Below are positions 1 to 3,982 of a DNA stretch of 22,172 nucleotides, piece after piece (positions within the stretch are counted from its first letter, which is position 1; every line of letters starts with the position of its first letter). The DNA is from a virus (Duplodnaviria; Heunggongvirae; Uroviricota; Caudoviricetes), in the IMG/VR virus record IMGVR_UViG_2585427761_000022, one strand, 5' to 3'. The translations under genes were made by a program, and so were the position numbers. The notes under the pieces are model-generated. The model was not told the origin of the DNA and searched no databases. It saw nothing but the letters and a program-made list of their open reading frames with translations.

Positions 1-1002
1 TTACCCTCTATTGTCAAAAGGGTTCAATTCAACAGCAGCCTCTAAATGACCTGGAGCAAAATGCGCATAACGCATAGTCATTTTTATATCGCTATGCCCC
101 AGTATTTTTTGCAACACAAGAATATTTCCGCCCCGCATCATAAAATGACTGGCAAACGTGTGACGTAGCACATGAGTTAATTGCCCATCAGGAAGCTCGA
201 TCTTCGCTCTCTTAATTGCAGCGTCAAAAGCCTCATAACATGGTGAAAATAGCGCTCCTCGTTTTTTAGGAAGCATAGCCTGCAATTGAGGTGAAATCGG
301 TACAGTGCGGTTCTTCTTTCCTTTAGTTTTAACAAATGTGATTCGACCGGGCAGTACTTGAGATTGCTTTAATCCTTCTGCTTCACTCCACCGAGCACCC
401 GTCGCAAGCCCAATACGGACAACAACCCCCAAATCTTTATTCCGTGACTCATCACACGCAATCAGAAGGCGTTCAATCTCATCTACATACAGAAACGCCA
501 GTTCCTTTTCTTCCTCACGAAACTTGCGAATACCAGTCAGGGGGTTTTCACCAGACCACTCCCCAAGGCGCTTCAGTTCGGCAAAAACAGCATGTAGATA
601 TGACTGCTCGCGATTAACGGTTGCTTCACTAAGTTTTTTCTTCCCCTTGGGATTCCATTCTCCTGATAGCCTTCTTTCCCGATAAGTAGCAAACATATTT
701 TTGTCAAACTGAGAAGCAAATGGATCTCCCAGCCTGGAACAAATCGCCTCAAGTTTGACTTTGCGCTCTGCACCAGAGGACAAGGTTTTACCGTACATCT
801 CAAACCAACGAGCAATCAACTCAGAAAGACGAGGACCAGAACCATCTTGAAACTCGTCTCCAACTCTACTATTCATTAAACGGCGCTCATAAGAGAGCGC
901 CTCACTTTTTGTCGCAAACTGTTTACGAATGCGTTTTCCCGATGCCCCGTAGGGATAACATTCGCAAAGCCATTTACCTGATGGAATCTTACGAACCGAC
1001 AT
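1..1002 (-). CDS. int: P2-family tyrosine integrase, complete (stop at 1-3, ATG at 1000-1002)
   Basis: 333-aa ORF with a C-terminal catalytic block HVLRHTFASHFMMRGG...MTMRYAHFAP typical of phage tyrosine recombinases; sits at the prophage end next to the repressor as in P2. Confidence 0.9.
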   Translation of the reverse strand: MSVRKIPSGKWLCECYPYGASGKRIRKQFATKSEALSYERRLMNSRVGDEFQDGSGPRLSELIARWFEMYGKTLSSGAERKVKLEAICSRLGDPFASQFDKNMFATYRERRLSGEWNPKGKKKLSEATVNREQSYLHAVFAELKRLGEWSGENPLTGIRKFREEEKELAFLYVDEIERLLIACDESRNKDLGVVVRIGLATGARWSEAEGLKQSQVLPGRITFVKTKGKKNRTVPISPQLQAMLPKKRGALFSPCYEAFDAAIKRAKIELPDGQLTHVLRHTFASHFMMRGGNILVLQKILGHSDIKMTMRYAHFAPGHLEAAVELNPFDNRG

Positions 1003-1007
1003 TTTAG

Positions 1008-1355
1008 TTACTTATCACATAAATCAAATGCAGCCTTAGTGACATCCCCCAGACTCTTTTTTAACCCTGGGGCGGCATCATTATCTAGCCAAAATGGATT
1101 ATTGTTATCTAACGGTAACGCACCAAATGTTTTACCTTTTATTCGAGCCAAACCTGTAAGTGCATATAACTTATTATCGTCAAAATTCATCACATAAGGA
1201 TTACCATCAAGACACTGTAATTGAACCTCATCAGTATTAAATGGCCATACCCCATTGAAACTCTCACGTTCAATAGTTTTAAAAGGCATTGCGACGGCGG
1301 AAAAAGAAAACATAGATAAAAAAGTAACTAATAGTTGAACCTTTTTTACTTTCAT
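1008..1355 (-). CDS. Small secreted/periplasmic protein (115 aa) with a cleavable signal peptide and two Cys; possibly DUF2511/YebY-like (memory only)
   Basis: N-terminal signal peptide MKVKKVQLLVTFLSMFSFSAVA; RBS GAGGT 7 nt upstream of ATG; AT-rich; co-oriented between int and the upstream membrane-protein gene. Confidence 0.7.
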   Translation of the reverse strand: MKVKKVQLLVTFLSMFSFSAVAMPFKTIERESFNGVWPFNTDEVQLQCLDGNPYVMNFDDNKLYALTGLARIKGKTFGALPLDNNNPFWLDNDAAPGLKKSLGDVTKAAFDLCDK

Positions 1356-1384: not shown

Positions 1385-2035
1385 TTACAAATTAAAAAAC
1401 GCCCTAGAAATGACACCGCCTACCAAAACCCCTACGCAGATAAAGAATATTATTTCTTTTGGATAAAGTCGGATTAATTCTGAAGCACGAAGTCGGACTT
1501 CTGGTAAGGTCGAACTCTCTGTGTGGCTTGATGCCGATTGTTGCTCTAACCACGACAATGCAGACTGTAACTGAGAACGAGTAAGATCGTTTAAACGTCC
1601 TGTACCGAAATTGATATGGCAATACCGCAGAAGTTTTTGTCGAAGTCCACAGTCTTCACTGTTACGTAGTAATAAACTTACAAGAGCCTTACAGGCATCA
1701 TGATCTTTACATCGCTCAAGCATTGCATGCAGAAAACTCTCCGCTGTTTTATATTGATTTACTGTCATATCATCAATACCAGCTACACCAATCTCCGCAT
1801 GTACTTTTTGCCAAATAATAAACGCTTCAGTATTGCTAGCTTCTGCAATAGCAGCAACCAAGCTATTTAGCTCCTTACGCTGAGCCTTAAGCAAAGGGCG
1901 ATCGTCATCATCATTATTCGAAGGGATTGCGATATTGACGGTCTGAGAACCATCATATCGCTCTATCTGAATATTCTTTTCGTGAAAATCACGCCCAGCA
2001 ACGCGATTGTTTGAACCGTTTGAGTTGACGGCCAT
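1385..2035 (-). CDS. C-tail-anchored membrane protein (216 aa), function unknown; N-terminus shares the motif NNR[IV]AGRD[YF] with the repressor C-terminus
   Basis: Strong RBS GGGAGGTG before ATG; single C-terminal hydrophobic helix IIFFICVGVLVGGVI; Cys-rich central region; separated from the repressor gene by three stops TGA-TAG-TAG. Confidence 0.75.
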   Translation of the reverse strand: MAVNSNGSNNRVAGRDFHEKNIQIERYDGSQTVNIAIPSNNDDDDRPLLKAQRKELNSLVAAIAEASNTEAFIIWQKVHAEIGVAGIDDMTVNQYKTAESFLHAMLERCKDHDACKALVSLLLRNSEDCGLRQKLLRYCHINFGTGRLNDLTRSQLQSALSWLEQQSASSHTESSTLPEVRLRASELIRLYPKEIIFFICVGVLVGGVISRAFFNL

Positions 2036-2050
2036 GTCACCTCCCTACTA

Positions 2051-2455
2051 TCACCTACCCTTAGTTTCGTTATAGTCACGACCAGCGATACGGTTATTAC
2101 CACCAGAAATATTTAACTCACGTCCTGATGGCTGAGTTTCCTTTTCACTGATCGCACCTTTTAAAGCCCCAATCACCGCATTTTTCACATCTAACGAAGC
2201 TGCTCGAAAGCGAGTAATCAACTCCTGCTCATCATCGTTATAAGTTTCAGGTGAGTGAATTCCCAACACAACATACTGAACATCAAGGCCAAAACGAGAC
2301 AGCGCTGCCAAATACGCAGCATCAGGAAAGCTATCTCCTTTCTCATATCTAAGCTGAGTTAGCTTTTTGACTCCACCAATGTCGCTCATGGCAACTTGAC
2401 TAAGTCCCAATCTTTCCCTTTCCTCACGCAACCGCTGACCAATATCATTTTTCAT
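2051..2455 (-). CDS. Immunity repressor analogue (functional equivalent of P2 C / 186 CI), XRE-family HTH with a C-terminal extension
   Basis: N-terminal Cro/C1-type HTH (LGLSQVAMSDIGGVKKLTQLRYEKG); divergent from the early operon; first gene of a leftward operon ending at int. Confidence 0.85.
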   Translation of the reverse strand: MKNDIGQRLREERERLGLSQVAMSDIGGVKKLTQLRYEKGDSFPDAAYLAALSRFGLDVQYVVLGIHSPETYNDDEQELITRFRAASLDVKNAVIGALKGAISEKETQPSGRELNISGGNNRIAGRDYNETKGR

Positions 2456-2530
2456 ACAAAAACCTTGACAGGTATCTTTTTTGATACCAAAATGATTTCA
2501 CGAGCTATTAGATGATCACAATATACCACT
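2456..2530. promoter_or_regulatory. Divergent lysogenic/lytic switch region with candidate operator: inverted repeat GGTATC-T6-GATACC (2471-2488) abutting a TTGACA -35-like hexamer (2465-2470)
   Basis: 75-bp intergenic region between divergently oriented repressor and early operon; perfect 6-bp inverted repeat with 6-nt spacer. Confidence 0.5.
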
Positions 2531-2737
2531 ATGAAACAAGTTCTTCACGATACCAGATCACGCATTCCGCGTAACACCGCCACAGGTCCAAGACTGGCAC
2601 TTCGGCTGTCCCTCGAGGAGCGAGCCGTCATTGATGAAATGGCAGCTAAAGAACAACGCTCATCCTCTAACATGGCGCGCATGATCTTCCTTCGCGGCCT
2701 AGAGCTAACCCAGAAAGAACAAAACAAATCTTCCTGA
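2531..2737 (+). CDS. Small ribbon-helix-helix-like DNA-binding protein (68 aa), first gene of the early operon
   Basis: Segment LSLEERAVIDEMAAKEQRSSSNMARMIFLRGLE resembles CopG/MobC-type RHH domains; ATG start but no clear RBS. Confidence 0.5.
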   Translation: MKQVLHDTRSRIPRNTATGPRLALRLSLEERAVIDEMAAKEQRSSSNMARMIFLRGLELTQKEQNKSS

Positions 2738-2753
2738 TCAGGAGGCTAGTGGG

Positions 2754-2957
2754 ATGTCAGGTATAACCATCAATATCAATGTGAATGCCCCCTATGTATC
2801 CCTGCAGAAATATGCAGAGATAACAGGTATCCCTCTTAATACATGCAAAAAGATGTTGGCTGACGGTCGAATTATTATCCGACCCAAACGCGCCAAAATG
2901 GAAAAGCCTGAAGTAAACCTTGTGGCGATGTTAAAAGACGCTTTGGCTAACAGCTAA
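2754..2957 (+). CDS. Cox/Apl-like small HTH regulator or excisionase-type protein (67 aa)
   Basis: Strong RBS AGGAGG 9 nt upstream; HTH-like segment YVSLQKYAEITGIPLNTCKKMLADGRI; position equals cox/apl in P2/186. Confidence 0.7.
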   Translation: MSGITININVNAPYVSLQKYAEITGIPLNTCKKMLADGRIIIRPKRAKMEKPEVNLVAMLKDALANS

Positions 2958-2978
2958 AACAATGAACAGAGCACCATC

Positions 2979-3329
2979 ATGAAAAAAAACGCTAATAATC
3001 CATACTCCAAATTTCGTAATGGCGTAGAACGCCATGTACACCACGTCGCTACCAGTGCATCACGTAGTAACAGTCGCTATAACCTGAACGAGACGCACGC
3101 AACACCGGATGGCCACGCTGTAAAACAAATCGGCGAGCATGCCTGGCTGATTGAGAAAGCTGGAATCGTGGTCCACAAATGCCCACGCAATCCGTTTACC
3201 GGAAACCGCATTTTTGCATTGAACTGCGGCGACAATCACTTCGGGCAGGATTTCACATTATACGAAGCACTTCGCACGGTTGATCGTCTGCTTCGCGGGC
3301 AAAGTTTTATTAAACAGGCTGATTTATAA
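2979..3329 (+). CDS. Hypothetical early protein (116 aa)
   Basis: ORF in early operon, co-oriented and tightly packed; weak RBS; no recognisable domain. Confidence 0.55.
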   Translation: MKKNANNPYSKFRNGVERHVHHVATSASRSNSRYNLNETHATPDGHAVKQIGEHAWLIEKAGIVVHKCPRNPFTGNRIFALNCGDNHFGQDFTLYEALRTVDRLLRGQSFIKQADL

Positions 3330-3629: not shown

Positions 3630-3872
3630 ATGGGCAAAGAATATAAAACTCTCATTAACAAAGCACTTGAGCGTTTTTATTTTCGCTTAAGTGCATCAGG
3701 CGCTCATGCTGAACGTGCGGCCCGTGACTCATTGACCAGAGCAATCCGAAGTCTGTATGACGTGGCTTTTTACGCTGATGATCTGGATGCACTTAACGAA
3801 CTTTCCGAGCTGATCTATGCCGCAGAATGCGGGGAACATATTGAACCGTATAAGCTGGGAAATATCGCATGA
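3630..3872 (+). CDS. Hypothetical early protein (80 aa), predicted helical
   Basis: ATG at 3630 (GTG at 3627 also possible); ORF in operon context. Confidence 0.6.
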   Translation: MGKEYKTLINKALERFYFRLSASGAHAERAARDSLTRAIRSLYDVAFYADDLDALNELSELIYAAECGEHIEPYKLGNIA

Positions 3873-3982
3873 GTATATTTATCTCATGGCTTGTTCTGAT
3901 TATTTCGGTGGTCTGCGCCATTGGGATTATGCGAATTACTAATTCAGTAAAAAAGATTGAACGCTTTTTCACTGAAGAATAA
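3869..3982 (+). CDS. Small hydrophobic peptide (37 aa, MSIFISWLVLIISVVCAIGIMRITNSVKKIERFFTEE), single predicted TM helix; not in the supplied ORF track
   Basis: ATG overlaps the stop of the preceding gene (ATGA coupling); hydrophobic core followed by a charged tail. Confidence 0.4.
   Translation: MSIFISWLVLIISVVCAIGIMRITNSVKKIERFFTEE

What the first reader, a model, noticed from the sequence alone, without database searches (positions are those of the whole stretch)
1979..2113. Short linear motif shared by the repressor C-terminus and the N-terminus of the downstream membrane protein
The repressor ends ...NISGGNNRIAGRDYNETKGR and the next protein begins MAVNSNGSNNRVAGRDFHEKN. The core G-x-N-N-R-[IV]-A-G-R-D-[YF]-x-E is conserved at protein level while the codons differ mostly at synonymous third positions (about 79% nt identity over 11 codons). 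That pattern argues for selection on the peptide rather than a recent duplication. The genes are in the same frame, separated by three stops (TGA TAG TAG) and a strong RBS, so they are distinct proteins. A shared terminal motif could be a common docking site or degron for a protease or partner, or could let the membrane protein mimic or sequester the repressor, coupling membrane events to the lysis-lysogeny switch.
Basis: seen in the sequence. Interest (0 to 1): 0.65.

Follow-up and report, generated by a model that had tools for sequence, protein, structure and literature searches.

The report
Repressor and membrane partner share motif
A prophage repressor and the membrane protein encoded right after it carry matching copies of a short peptide motif, and the match recurs and co-varies across many P2-like and Mu-like phages, which suggests an undescribed physical link between the lysogeny switch and the cell membrane.

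Summary
The window is an E. coli P2-like prophage. The 134-aa XRE-type immunity repressor (2051-2455, minus strand) ends ...LNISGGNNRIAGRDYNE-TKGR. The next gene (1385-2035, minus strand) encodes a 216-aa tail-anchored membrane protein that begins MA-VNSNGSNNRVAGRDFHE.

The similarity is not local chance. Each motif is conserved in homologues of its own protein. More distant repressors carry different G/N-rich tails, and the gene immediately downstream then starts with the matching variant. In a permutation test on 44 dereplicated loci, z = 10.9 and 0 of 100,000 permutations reached the observed score. Codons at identical residues are no more alike than independent codon choice predicts (77 observed, 80.9 expected). 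So the peptide is under selection, and recent duplication or gene conversion is excluded.

Pairs for which a phage context could be assigned sit at the immunity locus of P2-like or Mu-like prophages. Cultured phages B3, BcepMu and KS10 carry the pair. Partners belong to unrelated families, but about 80% have a predicted membrane segment. AlphaFold2 monomer models leave both motifs disordered.

Best reading: a cognate homotypic interaction motif couples the repressor to a membrane-anchored partner. It is analogous to SinR/SinI and laid out like amyloid signalling pairs. The interaction itself and its outcome are inferred, not shown. I found no prior description.

The parts
2051..2455 (-). Immunity repressor gene, 134 aa. 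XRE-type helix-turn-helix (residues 1-65), two helices (74-104), then a disordered tail.
   Evidence: ORF. HTH_31/HTH_3 and the RstR and DicA models all score below their cut-offs. phrog_8 'transcriptional regulator' E = 2.5e-14. P22 C2 repressor in the PDB E = 0.011. AF2 model. Occupies the repressor position of a P2-like prophage.
2066..2119 (-). C-terminal copy of the shared motif, repressor residues 113-130: LNISGGNNRIAGRDYNE(T).
   Evidence: Alignment. G118, R122, A124, G125, R126, D127 and E130 are nearly invariant in 42 homologues. pLDDT is below 50 here. Motif HMM E = 2e-5.
2054..2065 (-). Short basic end of the repressor (TKGR). Homologues carry KK, KKK or longer Lys/Arg runs here.
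2036..2053 (-). Junction: three in-frame stops (TGA TAG TAG) followed by GGAGGTGAC, the ribosome-binding site just before the ATG.
   Evidence: In other loci the two genes are 3-30 bases apart or overlap as ATGA/GTGA in a different frame, so a fusion protein is not the rule.
1385..2035 (-). Partner gene: 216-aa tail-anchored membrane protein (Flk_N family PF27202, phrog_5825).
   Evidence: phrog_5825 E = 7e-103. PF27202 is precomputed for the homologues and named Flk_N. RefSeq annotates it as 'membrane protein'.
1979..2029 (-). N-terminal copy of the shared motif, partner residues 3-19: VNSNGSNNRVAGRDFHE.
   Evidence: G7, N10, R11, D16 and E19 are invariant in 50 homologues down to 58% identity. 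Motif HMM E = 9e-7.
1913..2035 (-). Conserved but disordered N-terminal region of the partner (residues 1-41). It holds the motif and a second degenerate strand-like unit, NIQIERYDGSQTVNIAIPS.
   Evidence: pLDDT is about 40 over residues 1-41, yet I24, D28, T32, N34 and P38 are invariant.
1523..1888 (-). Helical cytoplasmic domain of the partner (residues 50-171), Flk_N-like.
   Evidence: AF2 helices 50-171 with pLDDT 74-90. NCBIfam Flk model matches residues 35-166 at E = 8e-16, 58 bits against a cut-off of 353. No solved structural relative: best Foldseek PDB hit E = 0.9.
1391..1462 (-). C-terminal transmembrane anchor (residues 192-215).
   Evidence: AF2 helix 192-215. The hydrophobic C-terminus is conserved in homologues.
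1..1355 (-). Context: DUF2511 gene (1008-1355) and tyrosine integrase (1-1002) downstream on the same strand, with no terminator-like site between the genes.
   Evidence: DUF2511 is absent from most related loci, so it is not part of the module.
2456..2957 (+). Context: divergent early region. It has a promoter-like site at 2465-2493 and the Cox-like gene at 2754-2957.

Best explanation
The two peptides are the two halves of a cognate homotypic interaction motif. It is about 18-30 residues of short strand-like segments separated by glycines. The template is x-phi-x-phi-x-G-x-x-x-[R/Q]-phi-[A/S]-G-[R/G]-D-phi-x-[E/N], and in the repressor a Lys/Arg-rich end follows it. The repressor carries the motif on a flexible C-terminal tail. 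The next gene, co-transcribed and often translationally coupled, encodes a membrane-anchored protein whose cytoplasmic N-terminus carries the matching copy. I propose that the two copies pair directly, strand against strand. The membrane protein would then capture its own phage's repressor and compete with any tail-tail contacts between repressor molecules. That would make it a built-in, phage-specific anti-repressor or sequestration device that ties the amount of active repressor to the membrane. It would work like SinI on SinR, but with a Gly/Asn-rich strand motif instead of a helical hook, and with membrane tethering.

Shown here: the motif is real, conserved in both families, confined to these two termini, co-varies within pairs, is kept by selection on the protein, is disordered in monomer models, and sits at phage immunity loci; most partners are membrane proteins.

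Inferred: physical pairing, its effect on repression, and the signal that modulates it. I give the core claim (direct cognate pairing of the two copies) about 0.8. I give the full statement, including the anti-repressor or sequestration outcome, about 0.45.
For: 1. Conservation. The N-terminal motif is present in all 120 listed homologues of the membrane protein down to about 59% identity. The tail INVSGxGNR[IV]AGRD[YF]xENKK is kept in repressor homologues from Yersinia, Klebsiella, Salmonella, Serratia, Erwinia, Dickeya and Pectobacterium.

2. Co-variation. Repressors with other tail variants are followed by a gene that starts with the same variant. L014: QIFNGDISGQFAGNQIIN / QEFNGTAQGQFSSRDIIN. 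L021: YGNAQIGQASAGDIVN / FGGAQIDQAAAGDINN. L015, L018, L023, L024 and L152 behave the same way. Over 44 dereplicated loci chosen without regard to pairing, the cognate score sum was 1347. Permuted pairings gave 906 +/- 41, z = 10.9, and 0 of 100,000 reached the observed value.

3. Selection on the peptide. At 178 identical residues in 19 independent pairs, 77 use the same codon against 80.9 expected for independent codon choice.

4. Specificity of location. A motif HMM run against 26,405 six-frame ORF segments gave exactly two hits in 80 loci and three hits in L054, where the third is the N-terminus of a second downstream partner gene. Every hit I inspected was a repressor C-terminus or the N-terminus of a downstream partner.

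5. Context. The pairs for which a marker was found sit at the immunity position of P2-like prophages (Cox upstream, integrase downstream) or Mu-like prophages (MuA/MuB upstream). Several motif-bearing loci had no marker within the fetched flank. Cultured phages carry the pair: B3 ORF18/ORF20, BcepMu gp17/gp18 and KS10 gp13/gp12.

6. Partners. They fall into 36 clusters, with no known Pfam family beyond Flk_N in the ten tested. 29 of 36 have a TM-like segment.

7. Structure prediction. Both motifs are low-confidence and disordered in AF2 monomers despite invariant residues. This is typical of segments that fold only on binding.

8. Orthogonality. KS10 and BcepMu, reported in the literature as co-resident in one Burkholderia strain, carry different motifs.

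9. Precedent. SinI, encoded next to sinR, shares SinR's oligomerisation segment and blocks tetramer formation (PMC3917956).
Against: No interaction was modelled or measured. Nothing shows that the repressor tail mediates repressor oligomerisation. An anti-repressor co-expressed with its repressor from one operon needs an extra regulatory input, and none was identified. A few repressors carry a tail but have no recognisable partner downstream (L028, L059), so the tail must also work on its own. Genes co-transcribed with repressors in other phages are often exclusion or defence genes (my own knowledge: lambda rexAB), which favours a different outcome of the same interaction. Cognate scores in the Q-x-F-x-G-x-V-G-Q class are not always the best in their row, so specificity within that class may be loose.
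Confidence: 0.45

Rival explanations
1. Amyloid-like signalling. The motif is a bacterial amyloid signalling motif. The membrane protein would be the sensor, carrying the motif at its N-terminus as NLRs and Agp do. On a membrane or periplasmic cue its motif would adopt a cross-beta fold and template the repressor tail. The repressor would carry the motif at its C-terminus, as HET-S, Bell and Bab effectors do. Templating would drive the repressor into an inactive aggregate and induce the prophage.
For: The gene layout is the same as in HET-s/NWD2, BASS1-10 and Bab/Agp: a C-terminal motif on the upstream product and an N-terminal motif on the adjacent product, with within-pair matching. The length is about 18-30 residues with glycine breakers. 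Composition is biased: N x3.2, G x2.75, V x1.4, L x0.11, P x0.43. This is close to the bias reported for BASS: enriched in Q, N, G, V, I and depleted in K, P, L. The motif is disordered in monomer models. Some partners carry two or three motif-like units (BcepMu gp18). A BASS pair works in an E. coli prophage island. There is a precedent for an anti-repressor that aggregates its repressor: RstC/RstR, Davis 2002, cited in PMC3545932.
Against: Q and I are not enriched. The E. coli variant has conserved charged residues (R, R, D, E) in a short core. Neither protein is a Bell/HeLo-type effector or an NLR/STAND sensor. Irreversible aggregation of a constitutively co-expressed repressor would be risky for a lysogen. 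No fibril, prion or templating data exist, and no comparison with BASS profiles was possible.
Confidence: 0.2
2. Defence or exclusion effector coupled to the repressor. The membrane protein would be a superinfection-exclusion or abortive-infection effector expressed in the lysogen. The shared motif would let the repressor tail hold it inactive, or let it self-assemble when free repressor drops, so that loss or attack of the repressor triggers a membrane response.
For: The partner is co-transcribed with the repressor in the lysogenic operon. The partners are diverse, fast-evolving membrane proteins. Some have small periplasmic Cys-containing domains. Accessory genes placed next to repressors are commonly defence genes (my own knowledge: lambda rexAB, sieB). 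The Bab/Agp precedent links such motifs to abortive infection.
Against: PADLOC gave no hit for the partner. Most partners are simple tail-anchored or two-TM proteins with no recognisable pore-forming or enzymatic domain. The module is conserved as part of the immunity region in two unrelated phage groups, which suggests a role in the switch itself.
Confidence: 0.2
3. Shared recognition by a third factor. Both termini would be recognised by the same protease, chaperone or other host or phage protein (a common degron or docking site), without touching each other.
For: Terminal disordered segments are typical degrons. From my own knowledge, the C-terminal tail of the Mu repressor controls its degradation by ClpXP.
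Against: The motif varies between phages of one host genus and between prophages reported as co-resident, yet matches within each pair. No third motif-bearing ORF and no third gene is shared by the P2-like and Mu-like contexts. A C-terminal and an N-terminal degron are usually read by different adaptors.
Confidence: 0.08
4. Evolutionary relic. The similarity would be a leftover of a duplication of the repressor's 3' end when the downstream gene was acquired, or of the fission of a once-fused membrane-bound repressor, with no present function.
For: The two copies are only about 50 bases apart and in this window lie in the same frame. A local duplication is a plausible origin.
Against: Synonymous sites are saturated while the residues are kept. 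Motif residues are as invariant as the HTH. The two copies change together across lineages, z = 10.9. The frame relation is not conserved. No fused form appeared among the 150 best family representatives.
Confidence: 0.03

Closest known systems
SinR / SinI (and SlrR / SlrA) of Bacillus subtilis
   Same: An XRE-type HTH repressor related to phage repressors. A small antagonist encoded by the adjacent gene, partly on the same mRNA, shares the repressor's C-terminal oligomerisation segment and forms a heteromer through it (PMC3917956).
   Different: In SinR/SinI the shared segment is a pair of alpha-helical hooks. Here it is a Gly/Asn-rich, strand-like, disordered segment. SinI is a small soluble protein encoded upstream. 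Here the partner is downstream and membrane-anchored and carries the copy at its N-terminus. There is no sequence similarity between the motifs.
Amyloid signalling motif pairs: fungal HET-s/NWD2, bacterial BASS1-10 (Bell/NLR), BASS11 Bab/Agp in E. coli
   Same: A short motif shared by the C-terminus of one protein and the N-terminus of the protein encoded by the adjacent gene. Matching is tighter within a pair than between pairs. Composition is G/N-rich and L/P-poor. Bab/Agp lies in a prophage region of E. coli.
   Different: The C-terminal carrier is a DNA-binding repressor, not a membrane-disrupting Bell/HeLo domain. The N-terminal carrier is a small membrane protein, not an NLR or TPR-PIN sensor. 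Amyloid formation is untested, and the motif core is shorter and more charged in the E. coli variant.
Flk (Fluke, RflH), flagellar secretion-switch regulator of Salmonella and E. coli
   Same: The partner in this window has the Flk_N domain (PF27202) and, like Flk, is a cytoplasmic protein held by a C-terminal membrane anchor.
   Different: It scores 58 bits against the 353-bit cut-off of the Flk equivalog model. It is 216 aa, shorter than the 339-position Flk model. It is prophage-encoded next to a repressor and has an N-terminal motif. The NCBIfam match begins only at model position 18 and at residue 35 of the partner, which lies after the motif. I did not fetch a chromosomal Flk sequence to check whether it carries the motif. 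Many partners in other phages lack Flk_N altogether.
RstC / RstR of the Vibrio cholerae RS1/CTX phage
   Same: A phage-encoded anti-repressor that inactivates an XRE-type phage repressor by driving it into aggregates (Davis et al. 2002, cited in PMC3545932). The repressor here gives a weak sub-threshold match to the RstR model.
   Different: I know of no shared motif between RstC and RstR. RstC is soluble and encoded by a satellite element, not co-transcribed downstream of the repressor.

Membership tests
Amyloid signalling motif pairs (HET-s/NWD2, BASS1-11) | The same short motif at the C-terminus of one protein and the N-terminus of the protein encoded by the adjacent gene | tested here: met
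   Window. About 35 genome loci and about 40 viral loci. HMM hits fall at these two termini.
Amyloid signalling motif pairs (HET-s/NWD2, BASS1-11) | Within-pair similarity exceeds between-pair similarity | tested here: met
   Permutation test: z = 10.9, 0 of 100,000. The cognate partner is the best match in its row for most motif-bearing dereplicated loci.
Amyloid signalling motif pairs (HET-s/NWD2, BASS1-11) | About 20-25 residues, enriched in Q, N, G, V, I and depleted in K, P, L, with beta propensity | tested here: inconclusive
   N x3.2, G x2.75, V x1.4, L x0.11, P x0.43, but Q x1.08, I x0.96 and K x0.98. Length is 17-31 residues. No strand is predicted in the monomer models.
Amyloid signalling motif pairs (HET-s/NWD2, BASS1-11) | The C-terminal carrier is a membrane-targeting cell-death domain (HeLo/Bell/Bab). 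The N-terminal carrier is an NLR/STAND or comparable sensor. | tested here: not met
   The C-terminal carrier is an XRE HTH repressor. The N-terminal carrier is a Flk_N tail-anchored protein or another small membrane protein with no NTPase or repeat domains.
Amyloid signalling motif pairs (HET-s/NWD2, BASS1-11) | The motif forms cross-beta fibrils and templates its partner (prion-like) | not testable with these tools
   This needs peptides with ThT, Congo red, EM or ssNMR, or GFP-foci assays. Multimer modelling was not available.
SinR/SinI-type repressor/anti-repressor pair | XRE-type HTH repressor plus an adjacent gene product that shares the repressor's C-terminal segment | tested here: met
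   HTH. Shared segment. Adjacency and co-orientation.
SinR/SinI-type repressor/anti-repressor pair | The shared segment is an alpha-helical hook that mediates tetramerisation | tested here: not met
   The AF2 model shows no helix after residue 104. The tail has pLDDT below 50 and is Gly/Asn-rich.
SinR/SinI-type repressor/anti-repressor pair | The partner binds the repressor and abolishes operator binding | not testable with these tools
   A biochemical or genetic assay is required.
Flk (flagella biosynthesis regulator) | Passes the NCBIfam equivalog model PRK10715 | tested here: not met
   58.3 bits against a cut-off of 353. Only residues 35-166 match positions 18-149 of the 339-position model.
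Flk (flagella biosynthesis regulator) | Flk_N domain and a C-terminal membrane anchor | tested here: met
   PF27202 is precomputed for the homologues and named Flk_N. The TM helix is at 192-215.
LexA / lambda CI-type self-cleaving repressors | Ala-Gly cleavage site together with an S24 peptidase domain | tested here: not met
   The motif contains A-G in this window, but no S24 domain is present in the 134-aa protein. A-G is replaced in many variants, for example TSGD, EGGV and SAGN.

The most novel reading that the evidence does not exclude
A family of temperate-phage immunity repressors is controlled by prion-like templating. A membrane-anchored sensor encoded next to the repressor would convert the repressor's C-terminal tail into a cross-beta assembly through a matching N-terminal motif, switching off repression and inducing the prophage in response to a membrane or periplasmic cue. 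This would be the first amyloid signalling pathway whose output is a transcription factor. It would also be a RecA-independent induction route shared by P2-like and Mu-like phages.
Probability: 0.2. Interest if true: 0.95.

Novelty: new variant of a known kind. Interest (0 to 1): 0.8.

Why it matters
How many P2-like and Mu-like prophages sense the state of their host and leave lysogeny is poorly understood. Several are not induced through the classical RecA/LexA route. A conserved, pair-specific peptide link between the immunity repressor and a membrane protein would give these phages a direct line from the envelope to the lysis-lysogeny switch, or a repressor-gated membrane effector. The rule is simple: C-terminal tail of the repressor, N-terminus of the next gene. 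It holds in the roughly 75 motif-bearing loci examined across Gamma- and Betaproteobacteria, drawn from a repressor family of 4,928 representatives at E <= 1e-10. It is present in phages that can be handled genetically (B3, BcepMu, KS10), so it is testable at once. It would also widen the known use of short homotypic or amyloid-like signalling motifs in bacteria from cell-death effectors to transcription control, and it offers orthogonal peptide pairs for synthetic biology.

Tried and rejected
1. AlphaFold2 of a repressor-partner fusion as a stand-in for a complex. Only monomers could be modelled.

2. Foldseek of the partner model against the PDB. The best hit had E = 0.9, so there was no usable hit. 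Sequence search of the PDB found nothing beyond the HTH.

3. PADLOC. No defence-system model matches the partner. The only hits are weak RmrA/HTH hits for the repressor.

4. Protein search with the 40-residue N-terminal motif alone. It returned only six truncated fragments of the same protein and was uninformative about other architectures.

5. Literature search for 'AGRD' returned only AgrD quorum-sensing papers. Searches on amyloid, repressor and prophage found no paper that links such motifs to repressors. The KS10 paper calls gp13 and BcepMu gp17 repressors but does not mention the motif.

6. RNA- or DNA-level explanation (repeat, structure). Rejected because synonymous positions are not conserved between the copies.

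7. LexA-like Ala-Gly cleavage site. Considered and rejected: there is no S24 domain, and A-G is not conserved across variants.

8. A third motif copy elsewhere in the prophage, such as a separate anti-repressor. None was found in the window, and the only third copy in any locus is the second partner gene of L054.

9. Repressor-partner fusion proteins. None appeared among the 150 best representatives; the long hits are multi-HTH proteins.

10. Pfam on ten non-Flk_N partner proteins. Only sub-threshold zinc-ribbon and DUF hits were found.
Full report
**What is in the window.** The window matches many E. coli chromosomes at 100% identity and Escherichia phage 520873 (Xuanwuvirus, Peduoviridae) at 96%. 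It is a P2-like prophage inserted next to yecA.

Four genes lie in a row on the minus strand:
- a 134-aa helix-turn-helix protein (2051-2455);
- a 216-aa 'membrane protein' (1385-2035);
- a DUF2511 protein (1008-1355);
- the integrase (1-1002).

No terminator-like site lies between them. A Cox-like gene and the replication genes run the other way. The 134-aa protein therefore sits where P2-like phages keep their immunity repressor. It gives XRE-type HTH matches in Pfam and NCBIfam, all below the curated cut-offs. It also matches PHROGs and, in the PDB, the P22 C2 repressor.

**The observation.**
- The repressor ends ...LNISGGNNRIAGRDYNETKGR.
- Three in-frame stops and a GGAGG ribosome-binding site follow.
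- The next protein starts MAVNSNGSNNRVAGRDFHEKN.
- Ten of 17 aligned residues are identical, with score 62. None of 20,000 composition-preserving shuffles exceeded 50.
- Five of the nine identical residues use different codons.

**Conservation in each family.**
- All 120 listed homologues of the membrane protein, from Escherichia, Klebsiella, Serratia, Erwinia, Kosakonia and others, begin with M-x-V-N-S-x-G-x-x-N-R-x-[AS]-G-R-D-[FY]-x-E-N. This holds down to about 59% identity.
- G7, N10, R11, D16 and E19 are invariant in a 50-sequence alignment.
- Repressor homologues from many Enterobacterales end ...INVSGxGNR[IV]AGRD[YF][NH]ENKK. G118, R122, A124, G125, R126, D127 and E130 are nearly invariant, while the linker before them varies.

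**Co-variation.** More distant repressors have other Gly/Asn/Gln-rich tails. I fetched 80 genome loci and 80 viral contigs with a profile of the repressor. For each I read the gene immediately downstream. Where the tail differs, the downstream protein begins with the matching variant.

| Source | Repressor tail | Downstream N-terminus |
|---|---|---|
| Pectobacterium (L014) | QIFNGDISGQFAGNQIIN | QEFNGTAQGQFSSRDIIN |
| Jeongeupia (L021) | YGNAQIGQASAGDIVN | FGGAQIDQAAAGDINN |
| Rhodocyclaceae (L015) | QQINGPISGGVAGRDFVQ | QEINGDVEGGIAGRDIVR |
| Bordetella (L023) | KQVFHGQVGQ | TQIFRGQVGQ |

Many more loci behave the same way.

For an unbiased test I used all 44 dereplicated loci, with or without a motif.
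- The summed cognate alignment score was 1347.
- Permuted pairings gave 906 +/- 41, which is z = 10.9.
- None of 100,000 permutations reached the observed sum.

All instances align to one template: x-phi-x-phi-x-G-x-x-x-[R/Q]-phi-[A/S]-G-[R/G]-D-phi-x-[E/N]. The pairs are thus variants of one motif that drift together.

**Selection acts on the peptide.** In 19 dereplicated pairs there are 178 identical residues, not counting Met and Trp. 77 of them use the same codon in both copies. 80.9 would be expected if codons were chosen independently with the local usage. Synonymous sites are therefore saturated. The similarity is not due to a recent duplication, gene conversion or an RNA- or DNA-level constraint. 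The frame relation seen in this window is not conserved either: elsewhere the genes are 3-30 bases apart or overlap by ATGA/GTGA.

**The motif is confined to these two places.** I ran an HMM of the motif against 26,405 six-frame ORF segments of all loci and the window.
- In the window it hit only the two known copies (E = 9e-7 and 2e-5).
- It gave exactly two hits in 80 loci.
- It gave three hits in one locus, L054 (Cellvibrio), where two partner genes follow the repressor.
- Every hit I inspected was a repressor C-terminus or a downstream partner's N-terminus.

**Context.** Reference-protein searches place the motif pairs at two kinds of immunity locus:
- P2-like prophages, with Cox upstream and a tyrosine integrase downstream;
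- Mu-like transposable prophages, with a Ner-like HTH, MuA and MuB upstream, and holin and transglycosylase downstream.

Several motif-bearing loci (for example L015, L018, L027, L063 and L065) had no marker within the fetched flank, so their context is unassigned.

Cultured phages carry the pair:

| Phage | Repressor tail | Partner N-terminus |
|---|---|---|
| Pseudomonas phage B3 | ORF18 ...ISVTGDGNRTAGRDFHERKE | ORF20 VNIEVTGSNNIVAGRDFIENH... |
| Burkholderia phage BcepMu | gp17 ...QEQVFHGSVGQAVKVEGNLDQQGISFFGKGKKRK | gp18 ...KQEFNKPVGQAIQAGEANI...SIGSVAGRDIVNVN |
| Burkholderia phage KS10 | gp13 ...VASGSGITQVGSRVRI | gp12 ...MSASGFGIIQVAGDLSI |

The KS10 paper reports KS10 and BcepMu together in B. 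cenocepacia J2315 and calls gp13 and gp17 the lysogenic repressors. Their motifs differ. An exhaustive profile search finds 4,928 family representatives at E <= 1e-10. Many of the best 150 have such tails ending in a Lys-rich stretch, and none is fused to a partner.

**The partners.**
- In this window the partner has a disordered N-terminal 41 residues (pLDDT about 40). A helical domain follows at 50-171, then a C-terminal transmembrane helix at 192-215.
- The helical domain belongs to Pfam PF27202, Flk_N. It gives a sub-threshold match to the flagellar regulator Flk. [quoted passage not shown]
- Elsewhere the partners are unrelated. They form 36 clusters, and ten representatives gave no Pfam family.
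- 29 of the 36 clusters have a TM-like segment. Several of the remaining seven end in a short hydrophobic tail (for example L014, L023 and L024).
- The common denominator is a membrane-anchored protein with the motif on a cytoplasmic N-terminus.
- The repressor model shows the HTH, two further helices up to residue 104, and then a tail with pLDDT below 50.

Both motif copies are therefore strongly conserved segments that do not fold in the monomer. This is the signature of a binding-coupled element.

**Interpretation.** The data require a constraint that acts jointly on the two termini of each pair and differs between phages of the same host.

A host protease or chaperone does not fit. Pectobacterium and Pseudomonas each host several variants, and prophages reported as co-resident differ. 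The P2-like and Mu-like contexts share no third gene.

The simplest explanation is direct, cognate pairing of the two copies. The closest mechanistic precedent is SinR/SinI. There, the antagonist encoded next to an XRE-type repressor shares the repressor's oligomerisation segment and heteromerises through it.

The closest architectural precedent is the amyloid signalling pairs: HET-s/NWD2, BASS1-10, and BASS11 of Bab/Agp in an E. coli prophage island. They have the same C-terminal/N-terminal adjacent-gene layout, within-pair matching and a similar composition bias. Here the bias is N x3.2, G x2.75, V x1.4, L x0.11 and P x0.43.

I therefore propose that the membrane protein captures its own repressor through the motif and so modulates the pool of active repressor. 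I cannot tell whether this is a stoichiometric complex or a templated cross-beta assembly. I also cannot tell whether the output is induction, buffering of repressor level, or control of a membrane effector.

Membership of the BASS/HET-s class fails on the nature of both carrier domains, and the defining amyloid property could not be tested. Membership of the SinR/SinI class fails on the helical nature of the shared segment.

**Novelty.** I found no paper that links XRE phage repressors to such motifs. Recent work on amyloid signalling does not mention HTH proteins. I rate this a new variant of a known kind, namely homotypic-motif coupling of adjacent gene products. It has a new output (a phage repressor) and a new partner class (small membrane proteins). 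The finding is of high interest because it is general and statistically solid, it is present in tractable phages, and it bears on the open question of how non-SOS prophages sense their host.

**Limits.** Every functional step beyond sequence statistics is inferred.
- Start codons of some partners were assigned by rule.
- The TM calls use a hydropathy threshold.
- The AF2 alignments were shallow (42-50 sequences).
- The loci are dominated by Proteobacteria because the query profile came from them.

Noticed in passing
L054:3456-5128 (Cellvibrio sp. MAG contig DATJLF010000101.1): This repressor is followed by two successive genes that both start with the motif. The first is a 144-aa two-TM protein (HQHFHQPVGVVAGRDVNI). 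The second is a ~250-aa Flk_N-like multi-TM protein (TQEFNGNVGQVAGGNIYNYY). One repressor tail may therefore serve two partners.
   Followed up: partly
L168:2450-3645 (BcepMu gp17/gp18) and L169:2501-3559 (KS10 gp13/gp12): The literature reports these two Mu-like prophages together in B. cenocepacia J2315 (PMC2628397). They carry clearly different motif variants, as expected if the pairs must stay orthogonal. BcepMu gp18 has two or three motif-like units in a row.
   Followed up: partly
L168:2863-3645; also the partners of L012, L021, L139 and L152: Several long partners (260-340 aa) share an architecture. The order is motif, helical or coiled-coil region, one TM segment, then a small C-terminal, presumably periplasmic, domain with a conserved C-x-F-x-G-x-x-[YF]-x-x-G-[ST]...C pattern. 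No Pfam family matches it. It could be a sensor domain.
   Followed up: no
window 1008-1355 (-): A DUF2511 gene (phrog_2950, with a hydrophobic N-terminus that suggests export) sits between the partner gene and the integrase. It is absent from most related P2-like loci; only L148 has a 36%-identical copy. It looks like a separate accessory gene.
   Followed up: partly
L001 (Escherichia phage 520873, NC_049344.1), locus 2459-3065 and 1039-2039: In the only GenBank phage record with this module, the partner gene is not annotated and aligns in three pieces, and the integrase is split into two CDSs. This suggests frameshifts or sequencing errors in that record.
   Followed up: no
window 2456-2740: Annotations disagree in the divergent control region. 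The phage record calls a 68-aa 'Arc-like repressor' on the plus strand (window 2531-2737; weak RHH hits, E = 0.075). RefSeq E. coli instead calls a 45-aa hypothetical protein on the minus strand in the same stretch.
   Followed up: no
L037, L045-L049, L057-L082 (Pseudomonas chromosomes): Chromosomal members of the same HTH family lie upstream of a conserved response-regulator gene (MIRVLVVDDHDLVRTGITRMLADIDGLQVVGE...). They have helical, motif-free C-termini and no matching downstream N-terminus, so they act as natural negative controls.
   Followed up: partly
L028:~3800-3932, L059:~3800-3923 (Stenotrophomonas, Silanimonas): These repressors carry a typical Gly/Gln/Val-rich tail and a Lys/Arg-rich end, but no recognisable partner ORF follows. 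The tail may also function without a partner, or the partner may have been lost.
   Followed up: partly
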